NCBI GenBank assembly: GCA_023265515.1
Contig: JAHFSZ010000005.1
Coordinates: 1-55,735, forward strand
Origin: Verrucomicrobiota bacterium
Lineage (GTDB): Bacteria; Verrucomicrobiota; Verrucomicrobiia; JABWAM01; JAHFSZ01
DNA length: 55,735 bases
Direction of reading: 5' to 3'
The notes under the pieces are model-generated. The model saw only the letters and a program-made list of their open reading frames with translations, ran no database searches and had not been told where the DNA came from. Below are positions 15,573-54,932 of this stretch, in pieces. The translations under genes were made by a program, and so were the position numbers. Every line of letters begins with the position of its first letter. Positions within the stretch are counted from its first letter, which is position 1.

Positions 15573-16226
15573 CTAAGATGCCAGGCTTTCGTAGTTCTGC
15601 TCCGTAATATAGCGGTAATACTTATCGAAGAGGGCATCCGCGTCCTGCGGGTCGCCCTCCGGGTTGATTCTCTCGATTTTGGGAAGGATGGCGGCCGAAA
15701 GAATTCCTTCCTCGAAAGCTCTTTTAACGCCAACACCGTAAAGGATCACGGCATAGAGGCGGGGAACATTCGCCGGTAGCTGGTCGATTTCCTGATCCGT
15801 CAACAGTGGAATGCCGATCAGCGATGCGACCGCGTCGGCGTCAGGGTATTGTTTGAGAATGTCAAGATAGACCTTGTTCGGCATGCCGGCGCCGGTTCCC
15901 CGCGACATGTCGTCGATTTTGACGGTGACCCGCCCAACGATTTTGAATTTGCCTTCATACGGGCCGAAGCCCCGATTGAAGCCTTGGGTTTGCCCGCGGA
16001 ATACCGGGCTGTCGACGCTCGAATCCATCATCACGAGCACGAGCTTCGAACCTTCGGGAAGTTCCTGACCCAGCCGTTTGCCAAGCCCCTCGGTCGCGGC
16101 CGCCTGGCGGCTGACATCGATCTTGGGAGACCTTTCGCACTGCGTCAAGAAGAGGGAAAGAATCGAAATCACAATGGCCGCGATGCAGATGCCGGTCACG
16201 AGGGGTTTCTGTGCGCCCAAATTCAC
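15573..16226 (-). CDS. Hypothetical membrane-anchored periplasmic alpha/beta protein
   Basis: Single N-terminal TM (ICIAAIVISILSLFL), then a globular domain. GTG start at 16226 is a guess. Confidence 0.6.
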   Translation of the reverse strand: MNLGAQKPLVTGICIAAIVISILSLFLTQCERSPKIDVSRQAAATEGLGKRLGQELPEGSKLVLVMMDSSVDSPVFRGQTQGFNRGFGPYEGKFKIVGRVTVKIDDMSRGTGAGMPNKVYLDILKQYPDADAVASLIGIPLLTDQEIDQLPANVPRLYAVILYGVGVKRAFEEGILSAAILPKIERINPEGDPQDADALFDKYYRYITEQNYESLAS

Positions 16227-44452: not shown

Positions 44453-47400
44453 TCAATCGCGCGTCCAGCGAACAGAGTCGACGTAGAACGTTGTGGGTGT
44501 CTGGGCGGTGATCTTCAGAGGGCACGAGACATGTGCGGGATCAACTCCCGTAAAGCTGCTGATCGCAATGCTGATTTCCTGCCACTGGCCGGCCGTCGAA
44601 CTGATAAATTTCGTCCGGGTAATGCCCCCGGGTGATTCGATTTCCACTTTCAGGGTGGATGTGCTTTTGACCCAAAACTTCAAGTGTCCGCTCGCGTAAG
44701 ACGATAGATCGTAAGTGCCACTCACCTTGAATACGCCCCAACCGGCGAAGCCGATGGTGGTCGTCTGGAAACACTCCGTCCCTTCCGGCGGCGTTTCGCC
44801 CGTGAAGCTGCCGTCCCAGGATCCAACTCCCCAGGTAAAAACCGTCGAATCCGAAGGCACGCCTGCATCCGAATAGACGCTGAAAACAGTGCCGACCGTG
44901 ATCGTTGTTTCAGGCTCATACGGCAACCCCTCCGGAGTAAACCGAAATGTGTCATCCATGCCGATCCTCTCCTCGTAGGGTTGTATGCCCGGTCGCTTAT
45001 GGTCAAAGATATAAGCGCCCCACATGTAATTGGCTCCGTAGGGAGTGTTCGCCGGGATCGTGATGGGAAACATCTGGTTGCCGCTGCCCGTGCTGATGAG
45101 GAAGTCCGAGGTCATGTAGGTGACTCCCAGGTAGACATCCTGGAGAAAGATCCGGAGCGTCATGGGGAACGATACCTGATACGGCTTCCACTGTGTGAGC
45201 ATCACGATCGTATCGAGATCATTCCAGACCACCGGGACATAGACGGTCGTGCCCGGATCAAACACCGTCGGGAAGGCCGGGTCCTCAACCTTCAGGCGCG
45301 GCGCCCATGAGACCTTGGTCGGCGCCGTGCTCAGGTCCGACGACTCGGTAAACCAAGTGGCCCAGCGGTATTTGCCTCCGCTGGCCCCGTCCTTGAAGGA
45401 TGGGTCACCCGGATCATAATCCGGCACCAAGGCGTAGTTGGGCGTGTAAGGCGGACGGAAGTCGTCGACGACACCGTTGACCACCTCGCTCTGCAGCCAG
45501 TTCTCGAACCGCATGTCCTTGGCCGACGGATAACCGCTCAACGTCGCCGCCTTGTTCAGTGTGATTTTGTCGTTGGGCGAACCACCGTCGTTCAATGTGA
45601 TGCGGTAGTACTTCGCCGCTGTGTCAAGATTGATGGTTGGCGTGTAACTGCTAGCCGCGGTGGGCGAACTGTAGATGTTTGTCCAAGTCGTCTCGTCGGA
45701 GGTTTTCTCAACCATCACCTGGTTGTTGCTACCGGCCAACTGGAAGGCCATGGTGATCTTCGGCGAGGTTGCCGACGCGATGTCTTTGAAGGCAAGGAAG
45801 AGTCGCGGCCTCTGTGCCGGTCCAACGGCGTTGCTCACCCAGTTCTGGGCGCTCTCTTCCAGCCAGGCGTTTGGATCGACGACTCCATCAAACATCGGAC
45901 TGCCGCCATAGACCTTGTTGACCAGGCCATCGCCGTTGTCGCCATCGCCCATGAGGCCAAAGTTCAGCGTCAGAGACTGGCCCCTCGTGTTATATGCAAC
46001 CCAGTTGTCGAAGGTCCGGCCAGCCATGGCCAGCGGTGTCGCGCCCGCGTGGAGGAGGCCGTATCCGGCGATGCTGGATTGGAAACCAGGATCATTTGAC
46101 GACGTGTAGAAGCCGGTCTGACTGAGCCATGGATCGGATGCGTCCCACGGGTAAGCGAATGCAATCCAGTAAATATTACCGTCGCCCGTCATCGTGGTCG
46201 ATGGCAGCGTGAACTGCACGTTCTGGCTGCCGGTGCCGTCGAGGGTCCAAATATCCTGTTCGGCAAGTACGAAGTCGTCACCGCTTGGAGTCGCATATTT
46301 GAGCTGGATCTTGATCTTGTAGATCTCGCGCGTCGCCGAATCCAAAACCCTCTGGGCAATCAGTTGGTACTGGTTGGTCATCTGGTCAAACGTATCCACG
46401 CCGAAGTTGAACACATAGGCCTTGCTCCGCCTGTCCCCATAGTCCGACGTACGCGCGTAGGTTGTGTCGAAGTAATACGTCCCCGCGTTCTGCTCATACA
46501 ACTCGATGGACGTGATTTGCTTCCAGTCGACGCCCGTGACGGCGGCCGGGGTGATCGGCCAGTAAATCTGCGTCCACTGATTTTGGATCGCATGGCCCGG
46601 CGACCAGACCATGGAACTAAGATTGCCCCATTTGTCTTTGAACTTGATCTGGACCGTGTTGTTGTCCTGCGTGTCGTAGACCCAGGCGTAAAAGCCCACG
46701 ATGCTGCTCAGGTCCACAGTTCCGCCGGGCGCCCCCAGGTTGAGACCGATCGTGCCACCTCCGCTTCCCACGGTCATCTTGACCGAGTGCGATCCGGCCT
46801 GAACAATTCCCGTCTCAAAGGCGAGGCTCGCCTGCCAAGCGTCGTAAAAGTAGGCGCCCGGCGTGCTGTTGTCCGGCTCGAAGTCCTGGAAAGACACGTC
46901 GCCCTTGGCAATCGAGTTGCTGATCATTGCGGGCGCCGAAAAGCCCGCGTTCAAAATATCAGCCAGCTTCGTTCCCGTCGTCAACACCGTCCATGCGGTG
47001 GCCGATGCGTTCGGATTCGACGCGATCAGCTGGCCGTTCGAGTAGGTTTGCGTGATGTAGTTGTTGGTATCGGTCACCCTCAGATTCTGGAGAAAACCGA
47101 GGGAAGTCGCTGCCGGGGCCACGCCGAAGATGCTTTCGACACGGCCGGGGCCGTTGGAGCCGTCTGGCTTCAGCATGCCGACGCCGCCATCGGTGGCAAT
47201 TACGGCGAACTGCGCCGATTGGGAGTAAGCCCTGAGGTTGTAACACTCATCGTTGTTCATGACATAAACGCTCGGGAGGATGACCGTGCTGAAGAATGAT
47301 TTCAGGTACCCCCAGTTGAGGTTCAGGAGTTCGCTGTCGGTCCCCCGCTCGGTGTCATCCACGAAGTAATATCCCTTCGTGGGCTCCCAAACGCCGAGCT

Positions 47401-50400
47401 GTGACGCCTTGGCGCCGAGGCCAATCTTGCCGCTGATTAGCCGCGTGTCCGTGAATGTGCCGACGCTGGAGCCGTCAAGGTAGACCTGAAAGTTACTGCC
47501 GGTAGCCTGAACCTTCAGCATATGAGATACATTCGCCGAAATCTCGTTAATATTCGCCAGGTTCTGGACGAAGTCTTGCCCGTTGACCCTGCCGCCGTAC
47601 TTGATCCGCCAGAGGCCGTAGTTATTGTAGGTCTTAACGTAGTAGTAGTTGTCGTTGTTTTGATAGCGGAAGATCAAGTACGTCTCCTGGAAATAAGGGT
47701 CTTTCACCACATACTTGAACTTGGCTTCCACATTGTAATTCGTCCAACTGCTGTCGCCTGCCACAACCATGTTGTTGCCCTGACCAATGCGGTCGAGGCT
47801 CAGCTCGTTACTCGCCACCTGCCAGCGGCTGCAGCCATCCACCTGTGTCCAGTTTGCCATGCTGCCGGTGTTGAAGTTGTCGCTGAACGCCGCGGCGCCC
47901 GTCACCACGACGTCATCAAAGCGGGTCTCGGCCGGATTGGAGTGGGCATAACCCAGGCTTTCGAGCCAGTCGCAGGTCTGACTCACCTTGTCGTAGTGCG
48001 ACGGGAAAAGAGCCTGCGTCTTACTGGACCGCACCACGGCGATGCGCCGGGGAAATGCCGTTTCACGCGACAACGGAGTGTTTTCCCACCATTGATAAGC
48101 GTACAAGTCCTGCCATTGAAGATTAAGAGATGCGGTCTGGCCTTTCGTCAACGATGTGGGCAGCGCGGTGATCGGATTGATTGCCCACTCCAGCTGAGTC
48201 AACTGCTTCGCTTCGGCAACCTTATTGCCGTTGTCCTCGAGCCAGGCATGAATGATGTACTTGCCCCCGTCCAAGGTCGACTTGTAGTCACCATCCGCCT
48301 TGTTGGCGTCGGGAATGTAAAGCCAGAGCGTCTGATCGCCCTCGCCCGAAACCACCGCGTTGGCGCTGCTATAGATTTCATTCGCCACGCCGTCGCCGTT
48401 ATCTCCATCCTCCTGGAAGGCCGCCACCAGCGTTTCATTCTGCGCACCGAGTGTGTCGTACCGAACCTTCACCTGGAAAGAGTTCTGCCCCATCGGATGA
48501 ACCACGGCAGGAGCGTCGATGATTTCGACTTTCTTGATGGCATCGGTAGTGTACGCGCGCACCAACTCATGCCCGTTGGGTTGCAGCGTGAGGTTGAACG
48601 TTCCGTTGCTGCTGGTCGCGATGATTCCGCCGCTGGTCAGGTTCTCAATCGTTCGGCCTTGAACCAGCGTCGTCGTGATGGTCACCGTCTGGCTGGCGTC
48701 GTTAAGGTAGTTGTTTGCGGAAATCAGGATCGAGCCGTCGGCGGCTGTCCGGTAATCCACAAGAACATACTGGCTTCCTGACACGTCCAGGGCGGGATTG
48801 ATGCCGAAACCTGTGCGGAAGATCGCCTTGATCCAGTCATAACGCTGGGCCCAGGGGCCGATGTCCGGCTGGCCATCCGCGTTGCTGTCCGAGCTCACGT
48901 CACCGAGTGAAAAAGTCGTAATCGCCGCCTTCGCAGTCGGAAGGTTATTGATGACAAGGGCTGGATGGCCGTTGGAATGTCTGGCATACACCACGCCCGT
49001 GGTCGGCGTCGTCATGTTGCTGTACTTCCAAACGCGGAAGGTATCTTGACGGTTCTGGGTGAGAGGGGCGAGCGCCTGGGAAACCGTCGTAGTGATCGGC
49101 ATAAATTGGATGCCGAACTGCTCATTCTCGACAGGATCGTCGTAACCGGAAGTGTTCGTCGCATCAATGCCGAAGATATCGTTCATCTGCTGCACGAAAT
49201 CCGGAAGCGGATTGACATGGTAATCCTGCATGCCAGGCAAGTCGGCATCGGCATAGATGTTGACGCCGGCCGGAGTCACCTTGCGATGGATGTAGCTGAG
49301 GTCGCCCGGATAAGTCCGCATGTTCCGCGGCAGAATGAGGGCTGAATAAGTGCTGTAGTCGCGGGGCGTGCCGTTGTTCTTTTCAACATCCTGGAACATC
49401 TGCTCAGTGCCGGCGGTGTAAGCTGCGTCATCGAAATAGTAAACACCCTGATTCTGCTCGAAAAGTTCCACCGATCGGATCTTGGCTTTGTCCAAGCCGG
49501 CGGCTTTCGGGTACTGGGAAAGGTTCCACGTGATCTTCGTCCACTGGTTTGCAACCGATGCGTTGTTGGACCAAAGGGAGTTGCCGTCACCCCTGGAACC
49601 TCCGTTTCCGTTCACGTCGCGGAGACGGAGTTGAATCGTGTTGCTGCCTTGCGTGTCGTAGACCCAGACCGAAAATGCCGTCGCCCCGCTCAGGTTCTTG
49701 CTCTGGCCGGCGTCCGCCGCGTCAATCGCGACCGAGCCGCCTCCGTTGGCGGCGTTCATCTTGACCGAACGCGTGCCGCCATGGACGGTGGTCAGGTTAA
49801 TGGACGGGTCGGCCTGGTAAACATCCTTGAAGTAGGTTGAATTGAGCAGCTCGTCGCGCTCCATGAAGGTTGGCTTCAGACCGACCCGCAGAAGGGAACC
49901 GAAAAGCTGCTGCATGTTCGACTCGTAGCGGTTGTACATCTGATCGGTCGCGTGCGACCAATAGATCGCCACGTCGGGATCGCGATCCTTGGAACCCGCC
50001 AGCAGATGGATCAGCCCGATCTGCTCCATGAGGCCATAATTGTCGCGCACGACCCAATACGCCGGCTTGATCCGCCGGTCAGCATAGGTAATGCCGAAGC
50101 CTTTCTCGCGGTCGGTGATGTATTCACGGTCCTGCCACGTGAAAACGTGAATGCCGATGACACCGCTTTCCAGCGCCTCCCAAAGCGCGTTGCGGATGAG
50201 AGGTCCCTGGTTTTGCTCGTTGATGCCAGAGAAAAGCGTCTCGGACGAAGTGAAGCCGGTTTCAGAATACATGACAGGCAGGCCGGTCCTCCACTTGGCG
50301 TTGACGATGCCCCACCGGGCGGTCTCCAATTCCGAGCCAGGCAAATTCCACGGGTAATTGTTGATCGACCAGAAATCGAGGGGCGCTCCCATGTCCTTGC

Positions 50401-51388
50401 AGGCCTGCACGATCTTGCCCGCGTGTTCGGCGTGGTAGCGCCAGTCCTCATCACCCCACTGCGTGCCGACGGCCGAGTAGCTGATCAAGTGGTTTGGATC
50501 AGCGGCGCGCACGGCTTTCGCACCGGCGGCCGTGTAGCCGGCGATGCTGTCCTGCCGCCATTCCACCAGGTCCCACCAGGCGGGATTGTCCCGGTTGTAA
50601 GGCGTGGGCATCTGAACGTCATTGAATGAACCGTAGGACGTTCCCCACACCTGGTTGAGCGCCGAGATGCTGCCGTTGTAGAAAGTGGAAAGCCAGCTCC
50701 GAAACGCGCCCTGACACTGATCGTCGTAACCATCCTGCTTGCCGCTCCAGAGGCCAACATAGCCGTACTCGTTGCCGACAATCCAGGCGACAAGCGTCGG
50801 GTTGTTCTTGTAGCGAGCTGCCACCGCGCTCAGAAACTCCGTGTACTGCGCCCGGGCGTTCGGGTTCTCGAAAGAAATGATGTCAGAGCGCCAGCGGGTG
50901 GGCTGGTAGACCCCTTCGTTGTCATAGCCGGGCGGATGCATGGTGTACCAACCCGAATCCGGATTCTCGGCCGTCGATTTCGGAAACCAATCGGGCGGCC
51001 ATTGGTAGCCCGCCAGGGCGAACACCTTGATGCCCCGCTGGGCGCAGGCTTGCAGCAGATAGTCGTAATTGGACCAGTCAAACTGGTTGTCGCCTGCCGC
51101 TTCGATCTCCTTCCAGACGAAATCCACCCGAACGGAGTTGACATGCGCTTTGACCATCTCATCGAGGTCATAATTGATCTGATCGTACGTCTGCCAGACG
51201 CCGAGCGGGCGGTTCCATGTCTGATAGGCGATGCCGTGCGGCAGCCAATAACTGCTTGCAGTGGGGTCGTAGAAATAACCGTTCTGGATTCGAATGAATC
51301 GCTGATCATGGGCGTGGAGATGAGGGCACTGCGGCAAAAATACTGGAAACAGAAAAAGAAGACAGGATGACAGAATTTTCGTCTTCAC
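44453..51388 (-). CDS. Giant secreted multimodular glycoside hydrolase, clan GH-A (GH42-like catalytic domain) with CBM, lectin and Ig modules
   Basis: Signal peptide from GTG 51388; MVKAHVNSVRVDFVWKEIE, IVGNEYG (acid/base), MYSETG (nucleophile); GH42 trimerisation-like domains; several beta-sandwich modules. Confidence 0.85.
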   Translation of the reverse strand: MKTKILSSCLLFLFPVFLPQCPHLHAHDQRFIRIQNGYFYDPTASSYWLPHGIAYQTWNRPLGVWQTYDQINYDLDEMVKAHVNSVRVDFVWKEIEAAGDNQFDWSNYDYLLQACAQRGIKVFALAGYQWPPDWFPKSTAENPDSGWYTMHPPGYDNEGVYQPTRWRSDIISFENPNARAQYTEFLSAVAARYKNNPTLVAWIVGNEYGYVGLWSGKQDGYDDQCQGAFRSWLSTFYNGSISALNQVWGTSYGSFNDVQMPTPYNRDNPAWWDLVEWRQDSIAGYTAAGAKAVRAADPNHLISYSAVGTQWGDEDWRYHAEHAGKIVQACKDMGAPLDFWSINNYPWNLPGSELETARWGIVNAKWRTGLPVMYSETGFTSSETLFSGINEQNQGPLIRNALWEALESGVIGIHVFTWQDREYITDREKGFGITYADRRIKPAYWVVRDNYGLMEQIGLIHLLAGSKDRDPDVAIYWSHATDQMYNRYESNMQQLFGSLLRVGLKPTFMERDELLNSTYFKDVYQADPSINLTTVHGGTRSVKMNAANGGGSVAIDAADAGQSKNLSGATAFSVWVYDTQGSNTIQLRLRDVNGNGGSRGDGNSLWSNNASVANQWTKITWNLSQYPKAAGLDKAKIRSVELFEQNQGVYYFDDAAYTAGTEQMFQDVEKNNGTPRDYSTYSALILPRNMRTYPGDLSYIHRKVTPAGVNIYADADLPGMQDYHVNPLPDFVQQMNDIFGIDATNTSGYDDPVENEQFGIQFMPITTTVSQALAPLTQNRQDTFRVWKYSNMTTPTTGVVYARHSNGHPALVINNLPTAKAAITTFSLGDVSSDSNADGQPDIGPWAQRYDWIKAIFRTGFGINPALDVSGSQYVLVDYRTAADGSILISANNYLNDASQTVTITTTLVQGRTIENLTSGGIIATSSNGTFNLTLQPNGHELVRAYTTDAIKKVEIIDAPAVVHPMGQNSFQVKVRYDTLGAQNETLVAAFQEDGDNGDGVANEIYSSANAVVSGEGDQTLWLYIPDANKADGDYKSTLDGGKYIIHAWLEDNGNKVAEAKQLTQLEWAINPITALPTSLTKGQTASLNLQWQDLYAYQWWENTPLSRETAFPRRIAVVRSSKTQALFPSHYDKVSQTCDWLESLGYAHSNPAETRFDDVVVTGAAAFSDNFNTGSMANWTQVDGCSRWQVASNELSLDRIGQGNNMVVAGDSSWTNYNVEAKFKYVVKDPYFQETYLIFRYQNNDNYYYVKTYNNYGLWRIKYGGRVNGQDFVQNLANINEISANVSHMLKVQATGSNFQVYLDGSSVGTFTDTRLISGKIGLGAKASQLGVWEPTKGYYFVDDTERGTDSELLNLNWGYLKSFFSTVILPSVYVMNNDECYNLRAYSQSAQFAVIATDGGVGMLKPDGSNGPGRVESIFGVAPAATSLGFLQNLRVTDTNNYITQTYSNGQLIASNPNASATAWTVLTTGTKLADILNAGFSAPAMISNSIAKGDVSFQDFEPDNSTPGAYFYDAWQASLAFETGIVQAGSHSVKMTVGSGGGTIGLNLGAPGGTVDLSSIVGFYAWVYDTQDNNTVQIKFKDKWGNLSSMVWSPGHAIQNQWTQIYWPITPAAVTGVDWKQITSIELYEQNAGTYYFDTTYARTSDYGDRRSKAYVFNFGVDTFDQMTNQYQLIAQRVLDSATREIYKIKIQLKYATPSGDDFVLAEQDIWTLDGTGSQNVQFTLPSTTMTGDGNIYWIAFAYPWDASDPWLSQTGFYTSSNDPGFQSSIAGYGLLHAGATPLAMAGRTFDNWVAYNTRGQSLTLNFGLMGDGDNGDGLVNKVYGGSPMFDGVVDPNAWLEESAQNWVSNAVGPAQRPRLFLAFKDIASATSPKITMAFQLAGSNNQVMVEKTSDETTWTNIYSSPTAASSYTPTINLDTAAKYYRITLNDGGSPNDKITLNKAATLSGYPSAKDMRFENWLQSEVVNGVVDDFRPPYTPNYALVPDYDPGDPSFKDGASGGKYRWATWFTESSDLSTAPTKVSWAPRLKVEDPAFPTVFDPGTTVYVPVVWNDLDTIVMLTQWKPYQVSFPMTLRIFLQDVYLGVTYMTSDFLISTGSGNQMFPITIPANTPYGANYMWGAYIFDHKRPGIQPYEERIGMDDTFRFTPEGLPYEPETTITVGTVFSVYSDAGVPSDSTVFTWGVGSWDGSFTGETPPEGTECFQTTTIGFAGWGVFKVSGTYDLSSYASGHLKFWVKSTSTLKVEIESPGGITRTKFISSTAGQWQEISIAISSFTGVDPAHVSCPLKITAQTPTTFYVDSVRWTRD

Positions 51389-51539
51389 GGTTGTTGTTTT
51401 GTCGAAAGATTTTTGAGATCCCGGAAGCCGGCTTAACCCCAATGAGACACTCGGGAATTTAAAGAGTATAAATACTTAGTTCAGTTCCCCACGAAGCGAT
51501 CCTTGTACTATCCTCACCCCTCTTGATCTGCAAGAAATT

Positions 51540-54500
51540 TCATTCCGCCGCCAGCAGCTCCCGCGCCATTGTCTCTACATTCTGCAAACCGCATTCGGTA
51601 GCCAGCGCAAGTGCGCGTTTGAGTGATTCCGAAGCGCCATCCTTGTCTTTTCGTTCATTCCGAACCCGGCCCTGGGCAAGAAAAGTCCGGGCTAAATCAA
51701 ACTTTGCCCCAATTTCCTCCATGAGCGCTGCGCTTTTGGTCAGGTGACCATCGGCCTCATCCAGGCGTGGCGGCGAACCTGCCGCCAACACTCGACCGAT
51801 CGCACGCTCCGCCAAAGCTTCAGCAATGACGCTGCCCGTTGTTTTGGCAATCGCAAGAGCCTCTTCCCCCTTTTTCAGCGCCGAGGTCACGTCGCCCGAT
51901 TCAAGCAAAGTTTCGGCTTCAATCGCCGCCAGCCATTCTCCGAGCAGTAAACGACCACCAAGTTTTTTCGCAGCTTCATGAGCTGCGGTCCAATGTTTGA
52001 TGGCCCCTTCATAATCCTTCAATCCGGACAACCCCCAAGCAATGAATGAATTGCTGGAATATTGAAACATTGCGTCTCCACTATTTTCGGCAATGGCAAA
52101 TGCTTTCTTGGCATTTTCAATCGCCTCGGCATACCTGCCCGCAATCAGTTGGATCAGGGCAAAGGCAGTATGAGCCATCGTTTTTGCATTCAAATCTCGA
52201 CTGGCCTGCAATAATTTAAGCACGCGCATGATTTCCTTGGAACCTGTCGCATAATCTCCCAATGCGGCGCGAGATCCTGCGCGAAAAATATGAGAGTAGA
52301 GAATCTCGTGATGGTTTTTTGCCGCCTCCAGAAGCGGCACGGTTTGGTTTAAAAGTTCCAGCGATTTTGCAAACTGACCCTGCATGAAAAGAGCGCGTCC
52401 GATAACAGCCCCCGGAAGAGCCATGAGTTCCGGATCACCAAGCTTGGAGGCGACTGCAAGCACTTTTTGAAAGTGACCAATCGCTTCCGGCGTGCGTCCC
52501 CCAAGGTAATGTACTCGCCCCATCCAAAATTGAATGCGTGCCAGACGAATCGGATCGTTCAACAATTCCGCTGTGGCCTTGGCTTCGACAAGCAGAGCCA
52601 TGTTTTTTTCCGGTGATTCAGCCTGGGGTGACACACTCACCAACCGGACATTCAGATCCACCCGTTTCTGATGATGAACTTCGTCCTGAGGAAGATATTT
52701 AAGAGCTTCGAGCGCCCGACGAAAATGGTCCCGCGCCTCCGCGTAGGCAAAAATTTGTGTCATTGCGTTTCCAGCTCTGGCTGAGTATTCGAGAGCCTTT
52801 TCCCACGCCTCTCCACGGAAGTAGTGGTAGGCCAGCAACGCCGTAAACTCCTCGATCCGCTCGGCGAACACCGCTTCCATCGCCTCGCCCACCTTTTGGT
52901 GCAAAATTTTCCGCGCCGGTCCCAGCAGCGTCTGGTAGGCCACTTCCTGTGTCAGAGCATGTTGAAAAATATACTCGATCTCCGGATGCCGCGCCCGCTC
53001 CCGCACCAACTCCGCCTCCTCGAGCCGCGAGATCTGCGCATCCAGCCCCGTCTCGCCCCGCGCTATGTGGTCCAGGACACGATAAAGAAACACCCGACCG
53101 ATCACCGCCGCCTTCTGAATCACCCGCCGCGTTTCCTCCGGCAGCCGATCCAACCGTGAAAGCAGCACCGCCTGAAGCGTGTCCGGCACCTGAATCGTCT
53201 CAACAAGCTCCGTCGCCTTCCATTCCGCCCCATCACGAACGAGCGCTCCCCGCTCGATGAGAGACCGCAGCACCTCCTCGACAAAAAATGGATTCCCTTC
53301 CGCCTTGCCAATGATCGTTGCCGTGAGCTTCTCCGGAAGCGTGCTACCTCCCAGCAATCCCTTCACCAAATCGTGATTGGATTGCCGGGAAAGAGGCTGA
53401 AGCTGAAGTTCCACAAAGCGGTCGCGAAATCCGGCCAGTGCCGGCTCCAGCTTTTCCCAATTCCCCGCAGATTCCTGCTTCGGCCGGCCCATCGCGACAA
53501 TCGCCACCGGCGCCCGCATGGTCACCGAGAGAAGATGAATGACCAGATCCATCGAACTCAAGTCCGCCCAATGAAGGTCTTCGAGCACCACCACCACGGG
53601 TTTCTGCCGGGCCAGAAGCAGCAGAAATTCCTCCATGATCGAAAAGAGCCGCGTCCGGAACGCCTCCCCGGCCATCGCCCCCACCGCGGCCGCTTCGCTG
53701 ACCTCGAGTCGTAGCGAAAGCAGCTGGGCCAGGACCGGATAGGCGTCCTTCTCCTCCGGAAAAATCTCGGCCAGGCGCCGCCGCAAACTCGCCCGCGCCT
53801 TCGCCTCTCCATCCTCGTCCGCGATCCCCGCGTAACGACGCAGCAGGTCCAAGAAGGGGCCATAGCTCAGCGACCGGCTAAAGGCGAAGGAACGACCCTC
53901 GAGCCACGTCAGGTCCTTCCCCTCCCGCTGACGGATCTCCGCCAGCAAGCGGCTCTTCCCAATCCCCGCTTCGCCCAGAATCCTCACGACCCGCCCCTCC
54001 CCGCGCCGCAAGGCATCAAGGCATTCCGCCAGCCCCTGACGCTCCCGGTCGCGACCAACAAGGGGCGAAGAGAGCCCTTCCAGACCGCGCGCCTTCTCCG
54101 GTTGAAGTTTCGCGTGCAAAAGCTCATAGACGTGCAAAGGATCCTGCTTTCCTTTAACCTTGATCGAATCCATCTCCTGGAAAGCAAAGCCCCCACGCGT
54201 CAGCCGATAGGTGTTCCGGCTCACAAAAACCTGCCCCCTTTTTGCAGCGTCCTGAAGCCGTGCCGCAATGTTGACCGTGTCCCCCATCACGGTGTAACTC
54301 ATCCGCAAATCGCTCCCCATGTTCCCGGCAATGACAATGCCGGTGTTCACGCCGATGTGAAGATCCAGCGGCTGACCCAGCTTCTCGATCCATCGCCGAT
54401 TGAATCCCTGCAGCTTTTCCCGCATCAGAAGCGCCGCGCGCAGAGCGTTCTCCGCGTCATCCTCCAGGGCGATGGGCGCTCCGAAGACTGCCATGACGCA

Positions 54501-54932
54501 ATCTCCCACAAACTTGTCCACCATTCCTTCGTACTGGTAAACGGCTTGGACCAACTCCTTCAGACAGTCATTGACGAGAGAAGCCACCACTTCCGCGTCG
54601 AGCCGTTCCGAGATGGCCGCGAAGCCGGAGATGTCGGCAAAAAGCACGGTGACTTGTCGGCGTTCGCCTTCGATCCGTCCCAAGGCGCGCATCTTGTCAG
54701 CGAGTTGTTTGGGAACGTAGCTCTGCAACTGCGCGAGCAGGGTGTCGGGCGAAAGACCGGCCTTTGGCTGGGCCTGGGCCGCGGTTTTTTGTTCGGCGCG
54801 AAGGGACTCGAGTTGCGCGCGTAGAACCGTGAGCGTGACCTCCACCACAGTGTCCCCAAGCGTCGGCCTCAACGACTCTTGCGCCGCAATCGCGGATTGA
54901 AGTTGGGCAATCTGTTCGTCGGTCGATGGCAA
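51540..54932 (-). CDS. Class III adenylate/guanylate cyclase - STAND/AAA ATPase - TPR protein
   Basis: VTVLFADISGF, DKFVGDCVMAVFG, YTVMGDTVNIAARLQ; Walker A GEAGIGKS; Walker B VVVLEDLHWAD; C-terminal TPR helices. TTG start. Confidence 0.93.
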   Translation of the reverse strand: MPSTDEQIAQLQSAIAAQESLRPTLGDTVVEVTLTVLRAQLESLRAEQKTAAQAQPKAGLSPDTLLAQLQSYVPKQLADKMRALGRIEGERRQVTVLFADISGFAAISERLDAEVVASLVNDCLKELVQAVYQYEGMVDKFVGDCVMAVFGAPIALEDDAENALRAALLMREKLQGFNRRWIEKLGQPLDLHIGVNTGIVIAGNMGSDLRMSYTVMGDTVNIAARLQDAAKRGQVFVSRNTYRLTRGGFAFQEMDSIKVKGKQDPLHVYELLHAKLQPEKARGLEGLSSPLVGRDRERQGLAECLDALRRGEGRVVRILGEAGIGKSRLLAEIRQREGKDLTWLEGRSFAFSRSLSYGPFLDLLRRYAGIADEDGEAKARASLRRRLAEIFPEEKDAYPVLAQLLSLRLEVSEAAAVGAMAGEAFRTRLFSIMEEFLLLLARQKPVVVVLEDLHWADLSSMDLVIHLLSVTMRAPVAIVAMGRPKQESAGNWEKLEPALAGFRDRFVELQLQPLSRQSNHDLVKGLLGGSTLPEKLTATIIGKAEGNPFFVEEVLRSLIERGALVRDGAEWKATELVETIQVPDTLQAVLLSRLDRLPEETRRVIQKAAVIGRVFLYRVLDHIARGETGLDAQISRLEEAELVRERARHPEIEYIFQHALTQEVAYQTLLGPARKILHQKVGEAMEAVFAERIEEFTALLAYHYFRGEAWEKALEYSARAGNAMTQIFAYAEARDHFRRALEALKYLPQDEVHHQKRVDLNVRLVSVSPQAESPEKNMALLVEAKATAELLNDPIRLARIQFWMGRVHYLGGRTPEAIGHFQKVLAVASKLGDPELMALPGAVIGRALFMQGQFAKSLELLNQTVPLLEAAKNHHEILYSHIFRAGSRAALGDYATGSKEIMRVLKLLQASRDLNAKTMAHTAFALIQLIAGRYAEAIENAKKAFAIAENSGDAMFQYSSNSFIAWGLSGLKDYEGAIKHWTAAHEAAKKLGGRLLLGEWLAAIEAETLLESGDVTSALKKGEEALAIAKTTGSVIAEALAERAIGRVLAAGSPPRLDEADGHLTKSAALMEEIGAKFDLARTFLAQGRVRNERKDKDGASESLKRALALATECGLQNVETMARELLAAE

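What the first reader, a model, noticed from the sequence alone, without database searches (positions are those of the whole stretch)
44453..51388. Russian-doll domain architecture in a ~2300-aa glycosidase
Seen by internal alignment: a two-Ig-like module occurs twice (EDGDNGDGVANEIY...IPD...DGGKYIIHAW versus GDGDNGDGLVNKVY...VPD...SGGKYRWATW). In copy 1 the second Ig domain is split at AFP|...|IYKIKIQL by a ~575-aa insert (46325-48049), whereas copy 2 reads SFP|MTLRIFL continuously. That insert is a second trimerisation/GATase-like domain (PAMISNSIA..SKAYVFNFG, compare PALVINNLPTAKAAITTFSLG). It in turn contains a lectin-like domain and a CBM. In copy 2 the first Ig domain is split by a different ~170-aa insert. 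This three-level nesting is unusual; CAZymes are normally beads-on-a-string.
Basis: partly seen in the sequence, partly recalled or inferred. Interest (0 to 1): 0.68.

Follow-up and report, generated by a model that had tools for sequence, protein, structure and literature searches.

The report
Nested domain insertions in giant GH42-like glycosidase
A 2311-residue secreted sugar-cleaving enzyme is built by inserting whole domains into loops of other domains, up to two insertions deep, and relatives that lack each insert show the order of assembly; the kind of architecture is already known, but this enzyme family is undescribed.

Summary
ORF 44453..51388 (-) encodes a signal-peptide protein. 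Residues ~49-965 fold like a complete GH42 beta-galactosidase: TIM barrel, trimerisation domain B and domain C (Foldseek TMt 0.70-0.77).

A two-sandwich module occurs twice. Profiles of copy 1 (966-1131 + 1707-1790) and copy 2 (1791-1861 + 2006-2185) align at E 1.8e-29, straight across the proposed splice.

The 575-residue insert (1132-1706) is a second copy of domain B:
- It aligns with the first domain B at E 1.4e-7.
- Pfam's GH42 trimerisation model (PF08532) scores above its cut-off on the same domain in homolog P0010.

This second domain B itself carries a CBM66/PF06439-like lectin (1169-1341) and a 156-residue binding module (1512-1667). Two more inserts sit in the first domain B (538-695) and in copy 2 (1862-2005).

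Natural relatives lack each insert with clean junctions. A sister subfamily of 1350-1600 residues has copy 1 uninterrupted. In an exhaustive search, 26 clusters align across the junction and about 26 stop at it.

Across about 66 homologs the same loops hold different inserted domains. Nested insertion is documented elsewhere, so this is a new variant, not a new principle. No model coordinates were available, so 3-D closure of the split sandwich is inferred. The substrate is unknown.

The parts
44453..51388 (-). Whole gene, 2311 aa from GTG 51388 (residue 19 of P0001) to the stop at 44453-44455
   Evidence: The database protein P0002 is identical and starts at this GTG.
51305..51388 (-). Signal peptide, aa 19-~46 (MKTKILSSCLLFLFPVFLPQCPHLHA|HDQ)
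   Evidence: Read from the sequence. The cleavage site is inferred.
49976..51298 (-). GH42-type (beta/alpha)8 catalytic domain A, aa ~49-489. Candidate acid/base E225 (GNE) and nucleophile E394 (SETG).
   Evidence: Pfam PF02449 scores 84.8 bits against a cut-off of 21. Foldseek matches GH42 structures at TMt 0.70-0.77. The WivGNEygY motif aligns to 4uoq WHVGNEYGC. Both Glu are invariant across the family.
49832..49975 (-). Domain B1 (GH42 trimerisation, GATase-like), N-terminal piece, aa 490-537
49358..49831 (-). Binding module CBM-a copy 1, inserted in B1, aa 538-695
   Evidence: 39% identical to copy 2, E 2e-31. Present in only 6% of homologs. Clean junction against P0009/10/11. 44% identical to a stand-alone 189-aa protein of the same genome.
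48848..49357 (-). Domain B1, C-terminal piece, aa 696-~865
48548..48847 (-). GH42 domain C-like beta-sandwich, aa ~866-965
   Evidence: The Foldseek alignment to whole GH42 chains spans it. All-beta in the model.
48050..48547 (-). Module M copy 1: sandwich 1 plus the N-terminal half of sandwich 2, aa 966-1131
46325..48049 (-). Level-1 insert: second domain-B-like alpha/beta domain (B2) with its own two inserts, aa 1132-1706
   Evidence: hhalign B1~B2 E 1.4e-7. PF08532 above its cut-off in P0010 B2, and 22.4 bits in P0008. Absent from the sister subfamily.
47420..47938 (-). Level-2 insert: ConA-like lectin domain (CBM66 / PF06439-like), aa 1169-1341
   Evidence: Foldseek matches CBM66 4b1m at TMt 0.71-0.74, 22% identity. 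PF06439 hits the equivalent domain of P0008, P0045 and P0056. Absent from P0009/10/11.
46442..46909 (-). Level-2 insert: binding module CBM-a copy 2, aa 1512-1667
46073..46324 (-). Module M copy 1: C-terminal half of sandwich 2, aa 1707-1790
   Evidence: On its own it hits copy 2 at 2095-2162, E 3e-9. Four strands with pLDDT 80-92.
45860..46072 (-). Module M copy 2: N-terminal part of sandwich 1, aa 1791-1861
45428..45859 (-). Insert in a hairpin of copy 2 sandwich 1: all-beta domain, possibly ConA-like, aa 1862-2005
   Evidence: Absent from P0009 and P0011; P0010 has a different insert there. Similarity to the first lectin is weak, E 1e-3.
44888..45427 (-). Module M copy 2: rest of sandwich 1 plus an uninterrupted sandwich 2, aa 2006-2185
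44456..44887 (-). C-terminal galactose-binding-like domain, aa 2186-2329
   Evidence: Pfam Exop_C E 3.5e-5, below its cut-off. hhalign to CBM-a copy 2 gives prob 82, E 1e-5.

Best explanation
The gene encodes a secreted retaining glycosidase with a complete GH42-type core: TIM barrel A, trimerisation domain B1 and sandwich C. The core is followed by a beta-sandwich stalk made of a duplicated two-sandwich module (M1, M2) and a terminal galactose-binding-like domain.

Five further domains are not strung on linkers. They are spliced into surface loops:
- B2, a copy of domain B, sits inside sandwich 2 of M1.
- A CBM66/PF06439-like lectin and a ~156-aa binding module sit inside B2.
- A second copy of that binding module sits inside B1.
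- An all-beta domain sits inside a hairpin of M2.

This gives A1-B1-C-B2-A2 nesting, that is, a host plus two insertion levels.

The likely order of events, inferred from which relatives carry what, is:
1. M uninterrupted (sister subfamily).
2. B2 inserted into M1 and M duplicated (whole main family).
3. Lectin inserted into B2.
4. Binding module inserted into B2 (P0007 plus the query clade).
5. That module copied into B1 (query clade only).

Inferred function: the inserted binding domains are held rigidly by two attachment points, without protease-exposed linkers, and they target or hold a polysaccharide for the GH42-like active site. The substrate is unknown.
For: GH42 core:
- Pfam PF02449 84.8 bits.
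- Foldseek to full-length GH42 chains: E 3e-28, TMt 0.70-0.77.
- The acid/base motif aligns to 4uoq.

Duplication and split of M:
- Self-BLAST.
- Spliced-profile hhalign E 1.8e-29 across the junction, and 1700-1800 alone E 3e-9; controls E ~0.2.
- The spliced M1 profile aligns uninterruptedly to P0081 903-1123, E 1.4e-40, while the B2 profile finds nothing there.
- In an exhaustive phmmer search of 1.84 billion representatives, 26 clusters (E <= 1e-30) align through query position 172/173 and about 26 more stop at 157-174.

B2 is domain B:
- hhalign E 1.4e-7.
- PF08532 27.8 bits against a cut-off of 25.8 in P0010 B2.
- The order of secondary-structure elements is the same in the two models.

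Level-2 and other inserts:
- Clean junctions against P0009/10/11.
- Occupancy of 6-8% for the two binding modules.
- CBM66 Foldseek hit; PF06439 in homologs.
- A stand-alone secreted copy of the binding module in the same genome, 44% and 38% identical.

Strand counts in the model: sandwich 2 of M1 has 3-4 strands before and 4 after the insert, mirroring 3+4 in the uninterrupted M2.
Against: - No 3-D coordinates were returned. It is therefore inferred, not seen, that 1043-1131 and 1707-1790 pack into one sandwich and that each insert's ends are adjacent.
- Model confidence is moderate (pLDDT 77 and 74) and low at 1115-1129, 1514-1574 and 1837-1859.
- The query's own B2 gets no Pfam hit, and a B2 profile finds nothing significant in the PDB by sequence.
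- The direction of some events (lectin gain versus loss in P0009-11) is not resolved.
- The genomic context gives no hint of a substrate: there is no polysaccharide-utilisation locus.
Confidence: 0.85

Rival explanations
1. The order B1-C-M1a-B2-M1b-M2 arose by tandem duplication of a B-C-M segment. On this view 1707-1790 is a degenerate second domain C, and nothing is really inserted.
For: B and M each occur twice, in the same relative order.
Against: - Domain C and 1700-1800 are unrelated (hhalign prob 1.2, E 0.046).
- 1700-1800 matches the C-terminal half of M2 sandwich 2 (E 3e-9).
- The sister subfamily and M2 carry that half directly after the N-terminal half.
Confidence: 0.04
2. The insertion is real historically, but the split sandwich no longer reassembles: the two halves now pack as separate small sheets or onto B2. 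The 3-D architecture would then not be a strict nest.
For: No coordinates were available. pLDDT is low at 1115-1129, just before the junction.
Against: - Both halves are conserved across about 66 homologs and still align to uninterrupted copies.
- Strands on both sides are predicted with pLDDT 80-94, and the count matches M2.
Confidence: 0.08
3. The uninterrupted state in the sister subfamily is derived: B2 was deleted there, rather than inserted in the main family.
For: Clean domain deletions do seem to happen in this family. P0009-11 lack the lectin although they sit inside a clade whose neighbours have it.
Against: M2, the internal paralog, is uninterrupted at the same point. B2 is a paralog of B1 of the same protein, so a copy-and-insert event is the simpler history. 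This rival changes only the history, not the architecture.
Confidence: 0.1
4. The internal similarities are chance or compositional artefacts of a long beta-rich protein.
For: Raw pairwise identities are low, at 26-34%.
Against: Profile E-values of 1.8e-29 and 1.4e-7 compare with 0.16-0.31 for reversed or unrelated profiles. Independent insert-less relatives also support the similarities.
Confidence: 0.01

Closest known systems
GH42 beta-galactosidases (e.g. Thermus thermophilus A4 1KWG, Geobacillus Gan42B 4OIF, Bifidobacterium BlGal42A 4UOQ)
   Same: - Three-domain core: TIM barrel, GATase-like trimerisation domain B and sandwich C. Foldseek TMt 0.70-0.77.
- Pfam PF02449 hit.
- GNE acid/base motif aligned.
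   Different: - Only 13-15% identity.
- 2311 aa against ~680 aa.
- Domain B is interrupted by a binding module.
- A second domain B lies inside a downstream sandwich.
- A 1350-aa non-GH42 tail.
- Secreted.
- Substrate and oligomeric state unknown.
Nested domain insertions catalogued from ECOD (A1-B1-C-B2-A2), e.g. NdhH and the cyanobacterial RNA polymerase beta' Si3 region (PMC13114784)
   Same: Recursive insertion, in which an inserted domain is itself a host.
   Different: - The level-1 insert here (bare B2 ~235-260 aa, 575 aa with its own inserts) is larger than its ~173-aa host. The survey finds inserts typically smaller than hosts (median 115 vs 199 aa).
- The insert is a paralog of a domain of the same protein.
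- The same slots hold different inserted domains across relatives.
CAZymes with a CBM spliced into another module, e.g. GH10 xylanases with CBM4 inside the catalytic domain (PMC7848910, title and abstract only)
   Same: Carbohydrate-binding modules are inserted rather than appended.
   Different: Those are single-level insertions into the catalytic domain. Here the hosts are non-catalytic scaffold domains and the nesting is two insertions deep.
CBM66 (Bacillus subtilis SacC, 4B1M) / Pfam PF06439 3-keto-disaccharide hydrolase-like ConA fold
   Same: The lectin-like insert 1169-1341 matches at TMt 0.71-0.74 and 22% identity. Equivalent domains of homologs hit PF06439.
   Different: The query's own copy gets no Pfam hit. 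Ligand unknown.

Membership tests
CAZy/Pfam GH42 (clan GH-A) | Sequence match of the catalytic domain to PF02449 above the gathering score | tested here: met
   84.8 bits against a cut-off of 21, aa 84-439.
CAZy/Pfam GH42 (clan GH-A) | Three-domain fold: A (TIM barrel), B (GATase-like trimerisation) and C (sandwich) | tested here: met
   The model of aa 19-1018 matches whole GH42 chains at E 3e-28, TMt 0.70-0.77.
CAZy/Pfam GH42 (clan GH-A) | Acid/base Glu in the N-E motif after strand 4 | tested here: met
   WIVGNEYGY (E225) aligns to 4uoq WHVGNEYGC. Invariant in the family.
CAZy/Pfam GH42 (clan GH-A) | Nucleophile Glu after strand 7 | tested here: inconclusive
   E394 in YSETG is invariant in 31 sequences. 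No residue-level alignment to a solved GH42 nucleophile was obtained.
CAZy/Pfam GH42 (clan GH-A) | Beta-galactosidase (or alpha-L-arabinopyranosidase) activity; homotrimer | not testable with these tools
   Needs an enzyme assay and SEC, MALS or a structure.
Nested domain insertion (A1-B1-C-B2-A2) | The two flanks of the insert together are homologous to an uninterrupted domain | tested here: met
   Spliced M1 vs M2 E 1.8e-29; vs P0081 E 1.4e-40, uninterrupted. Alignments of ~26 clusters stop at the junction.
Nested domain insertion (A1-B1-C-B2-A2) | The insert is an autonomous domain known elsewhere | tested here: met
   - B2 ~ B1 and PF08532 in P0010.
- The binding module exists as a stand-alone 189-aa protein.
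- The lectin matches CBM66 / PF06439.
Nested domain insertion (A1-B1-C-B2-A2) | The inserted domain is itself interrupted by further domains | tested here: met
   P0009/10/11 have B2 uninterrupted, at 237-239 aa; the query has +173 aa and +156 aa at two loops.
Nested domain insertion (A1-B1-C-B2-A2) | In 3-D the host halves form one domain and the insert's termini are adjacent | not testable with these tools
   Structure prediction returns no coordinates. Only the strand counts and pLDDT are consistent.

The most novel reading that the evidence does not exclude
This undescribed family of giant GH42-like enzymes, found in Omnitrophota, Kiritimatiellia, Lentisphaerota and Verrucomicrobiota, may be a natural 'plug-in scaffold'. 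At least six fixed surface loops in non-catalytic domains act as recurrent insertion hot spots.
- Unrelated inserted domains have been swapped in and out of these loops: lectins, MAM domains, beta-propellers, binding modules and a copy of the protein's own domain B.
- Sometimes the inserted domains form tandem arrays, with sizes in multiples of ~160 aa.

If so, substrate targeting would evolve by loop grafting rather than by linker-joined modules. The family would also offer a ready map of permissive insertion sites for protein engineering.
Probability: 0.55. Interest if true: 0.6.

Novelty: new variant of a known kind. Interest (0 to 1): 0.5.

Why it matters
- It is a clean, comparatively dated example of recursive domain insertion in a carbohydrate-active enzyme. 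Five insertion events lie in one chain, and for each a natural relative preserves the state without the insert.
- It goes against two rules of thumb: that CAZyme modules are beads on a string, and that inserts are smaller than their hosts.
- It defines a rare protein family, about 76 clusters at 50% identity among 1.84 billion representatives. Its stalk module and second domain B are invisible to Pfam, so current annotation ('beta-galactosidase') describes less than a fifth of the protein.
- The slot map could guide domain-insertion engineering and domain parsing of giant proteins from PVC bacteria and Omnitrophota.
- It does not by itself open a new biological mechanism.

Tried and rejected
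- Plain self-BLAST of the whole protein returns only the identity hit. I had to mask and window the sequence.
- Pfam and NCBIfam see only the TIM barrel. All other pieces, scanned alone at E <= 10, gave nothing useful except a sub-threshold Exop_C hit at the C-terminus.
- A spliced B2 profile against PDB sequences gave nothing significant.
- Foldseek with the 1200-aa multi-domain model is dominated by alpha-2-macroglobulin and complement multi-sandwich proteins and gives no query ranges. It identified only the lectin, as CBM66.
- The first two alignment and structure submissions were too large.
- Tandem-duplication origin rejected. Chance similarity rejected.
- MAFFT forces the two C-terminal lectin domains of P0080/P0081 into the B2 lectin columns, so their '323 aa' in the B2 column is an alignment artefact. 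hhalign shows they have no B2.
- No literature on this family was found.
Full report
**What is there.**
- The region is one ORF on the minus strand, 44453..51442, translated as P0001.
- Residue i of P0001 corresponds to nt 51442-3(i-1).
- The N-terminus (MKTKILSSCLLFLFPVFLPQCPHLHA|HDQ) reads as a signal peptide. This is read from the sequence; the cleavage site is inferred.
- Pfam and NCBIfam recognise only a GH42 TIM barrel at aa 84-439 (84.8 bits against a cut-off of 21).

**The GH42 core.**
- An AlphaFold2 model of aa 19-1018, built from a 31-sequence alignment, has pLDDT 74 and pTM 0.74.
- It matches full-length GH42 beta-galactosidases (5e9a, 5dfa, 3tts, 4oif, 5xb7, 1kwg) at E 3e-28 and TM-score 0.70-0.77 normalised to the ~680-aa target. 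Identity is 13-15%.
- So aa ~49-965 contain all three GH42 domains: TIM barrel A, the GATase-like trimerisation domain B (B1) and sandwich C.
- The family profile aligns WivGNEygY to 4uoq WHVGNEYGC, the GH42 acid/base motif.
- E225 (GNE) and E394 (SETG) are invariant in the alignment.
- The enzyme is therefore most likely an active retaining clan GH-A glycosidase. Its substrate is unknown.

**The internal repeats are real.**
- Windowed, masked self-BLAST gives 527-671 ~ 1521-1659 (39% identity, E 2e-31), 968-1041 ~ 1790-1861 (E 1.7e-6) and 1043-1113 ~ 2006-2076 (E 6e-5). It also gives a weak 1736-1764 ~ 2119-2146 (E 0.3).
- I cut family sub-alignments from a 68-row MAFFT alignment and compared them with hhalign.
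- Spliced module 1 (960-1131 + 1707-1800) against spliced module 2 (1785-1861 + 2003-2200) gives probability 99.8 and E 1.8e-29 over 198 columns.
- That alignment runs straight through TAFP|IYKIKIQL ~ VSFP|MTLRIFL.
- Unspliced 1700-1800 alone finds 2095-2162 of module 2 at E 3e-9.
- Reversed-profile and unrelated-domain controls give E 0.16-0.31.

**The 575-aa insert is a second domain B.**
- B1 (480-537 + 696-965) against B2 (1132-1180 + 1342-1515 + 1670-1800) gives probability 94 and E 1.4e-7 over 185 columns. The reversed control gives E 0.22.
- In homolog P0010, whose B2 is 49-54% identical to the query's and uninterrupted, Pfam's Glyco_hydro_42M model (PF08532) hits B2 at 27.8 bits, above its 25.8-bit cut-off. 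P0008 gives 22.4 bits at the same place.
- A weak stretch of the family profile (FystlilPsvyvmsd...) aligns to domain B of 4uoq at 470-512. It is not significant on its own.
- The two AlphaFold models show the same order of strands and helices in B1 and B2.
- The query's own B2 gets no Pfam hit. A B2 profile finds nothing significant in PDB sequences.

**Natural relatives lack each insert.**
- The homolog search found 80 proteins of 1379-3770 aa. Sources label them Omnitrophota, Kiritimatiellia, Lentisphaerota or Verrucomicrobiota.
- HSP maps and the alignment show a conserved scaffold with variable slots.
- P0009, P0010 and P0011 read straight through three of the query's inserts with clean junctions. 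Examples are LGYQR-AELGVWEPT against LGYAH[173 aa]ASQLGVWEPT, and LISNK-YGPYGSKTFVFNFG against MISNS[156 aa]SKAYVFNFG. At the fourth site, the copy-2 insert, P0009 and P0011 also read straight through, while P0010 carries a different ~178-aa insert.
- The two 156-160-aa binding modules are present in only 6-8% of homologs.
- For the level-1 insert, P0080 and P0081 and a sister subfamily have module 1 uninterrupted. That subfamily comprises 57 clusters of 1350-1600 aa, and the few that carry a source label are Verrucomicrobiota.
- The spliced M1 profile aligns uninterruptedly to P0081 903-1123 at E 1.4e-40. The B2 profile finds nothing there (E 0.027).
- An exhaustive phmmer search of 1.84 billion representatives with aa 960-1180 (junction at query position 172/173) found only 76 clusters.
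- In that search, 26 clusters (E <= 1e-30) align across the junction and about 26 others stop at 157-174.

**Identity of the inserted domains.**
- The lectin-like domain 1169-1341 matches CBM66 (4b1m) at TMt 0.71-0.74 and 22% identity.
- The equivalent domains of P0008, P0045 and P0056 hit PF06439.
- The binding module (CBM-a) also exists in the same genome as a stand-alone secreted 189-aa protein on contig 80. It is 44% identical to copy 1 and 38% to copy 2.
- CBM-a is distantly related to the C-terminal galactose-binding-like domain (hhalign probability 82, E 1e-5).
- The insert 1862-2005 is all-beta. Its similarity to the first lectin is weak (E 1e-3).

**Architecture and nesting.** The layout is:

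signal - A - B1[CBM-a] - C - M1{s1, s2-N [ B2(lectin)(CBM-a) ] s2-C} - M2{s1[beta domain], s2} - galactose-binding-like domain.

- That is five insertion events.
- Two of them lie inside an insert, so the pattern is A1-B1-C-B2-A2: a host plus two insertion levels.
- In the model of aa 960-2159 (pLDDT 77, pTM 0.61), sandwich 2 of M1 has 3-4 strands before the insert and four after, at pLDDT 80-94. This mirrors the 3+4 strands of uninterrupted M2.
- The predictor gives no coordinates. Closure of the split sandwich is therefore inferred.

**Likely history (inferred).**
- M is uninterrupted in the sister family.
- B2 is inserted and M is duplicated in all main-family members.
- The lectin in B2 is found in most members. 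It is absent in P0009-11, and gain versus loss is unresolved there.
- CBM-a in B2 is shared with P0007. CBM-a in B1 occurs only in P0002-P0006.
- A tandem B-C-M duplication is rejected because domain C and 1700-1800 are unrelated (E 0.046).

**Family-wide picture.**
- The same loops carry different inserted domains in different relatives.
- At ~825 in B1 the inserts are 0, 160, 320, 480, 630 or 820 aa.
- Between C and M1 there is nothing or 240-620 aa, which includes PQQ-like beta-propellers.
- In the B2 lectin slot the inserts are 0, 177, 403, 497 or 660 aa, with MAM domains added.
- In the M2 slot the inserts are 0-28, 157 or 188-220 aa, and P0010 has a different 178-aa insert.
- Some relatives even have 170-350 aa inside the TIM barrel near aa 257-268.

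**Context.**
- The neighbours are an adenylate-cyclase/STAND/TPR protein, a Ser/Thr kinase, a PMT-type glycosyltransferase, an acyl-CoA dehydrogenase, a LysR regulator, an alginate-export-like porin and assimilatory nitrate and sulfite reductase genes. There is no polysaccharide-utilisation locus.
- The gene is single-copy in a 2.2-Mb, 88.5%-complete genome.
- None of 40 genomes of the same order or class has aa 960-1707. The closest homologs carry Omnitrophota labels. The distribution is therefore patchy.

**Comparison with what is known.**
- Domain insertion occurs in about 20% of multidomain proteins. Nested A1-B1-C-B2-A2 patterns are a documented minority, with up to six levels in cyanobacterial RNA polymerase beta'.
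- Inserts are usually smaller than their hosts, with a median of 115 against 199 aa (PMC13114784).
- Here the principle is known, but several points stand out:
  - The level-1 insert is larger than its ~173-aa host.
  - It is a paralog of a domain of the same protein.
  - The hosts are non-catalytic scaffold domains of a CAZyme.
  - Relatives lacking each insert survive.
- I found no paper on this family.

**Verdict.** This is a new variant of a known kind, of moderate interest.

Noticed in passing
L007 1474-2043 (+) = G000 contig 80, about 15617-16186: A stand-alone secreted 189-aa protein consists of just the CBM-a module. It is 44% identical to the copy in B1 and 38% to the copy in B2. It may be the source of the inserted copies, or a free paralog.
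   Followed up: partly
window 49358-49831 (aa 538-695) vs 46442-46909 (aa 1512-1667): CBM-a copy 1 carries the strand QMFQDVEKNNGT at its C-terminal end. Copy 2 (VSFQDFEPDNST) and the stand-alone protein (LLQDFEPSNGT) have the equivalent strand at the N-terminal end. This hints at circular permutation of one strand (E 0.07) and agrees with another first-reader note (e1-5227274).
   Followed up: partly
homologs, slot near query aa 825 (window ~48968): Insert sizes in this loop of domain B1 fall at about 160, 320, 480, 630 and 820 aa across homologs. This suggests tandem arrays of one ~160-aa domain inside a single loop. The domain type was not identified.
   Followed up: no
homologs P0015, P0018, P0053, at query aa 255-276 (window ~50615-50680): Some relatives have 170-360-aa inserts inside the catalytic TIM barrel itself.
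   Followed up: no
whole gene, window 44453-51388: None of 40 genomes of the same order or class has a match to aa 960-1707. The best full-length homologs (65-66% identity) include proteins labelled Omnitrophota. The patchy distribution is compatible with horizontal transfer. The gene's GC (57-58%) is not distinct from its flanks.
   Followed up: partly
homolog P0010 aa ~1440-1660: The M2 hairpin slot of P0010 holds a different ~178-aa insert with an alpha/beta-looking sequence. P0010 also ends in a dockerin (PF00404).
   Followed up: no
L007 705-1436 (+): Next to the stand-alone CBM-a gene lies a 243-aa protein. It has a CBM-like N-terminal part (NPGFETGDYTGW...) and a C-terminal hydrophobic tail followed by basic residues, which looks like a PEP-CTERM-type anchor. 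This was read from the sequence only.
   Followed up: no
window 51540-54932 (-): The upstream neighbour is an 1130-aa protein combining an adenylate/guanylate cyclase domain, an AAA_16 (STAND) ATPase domain and TPR repeats. Another first-reader note flags a GC drop in its TPR part.
   Followed up: no
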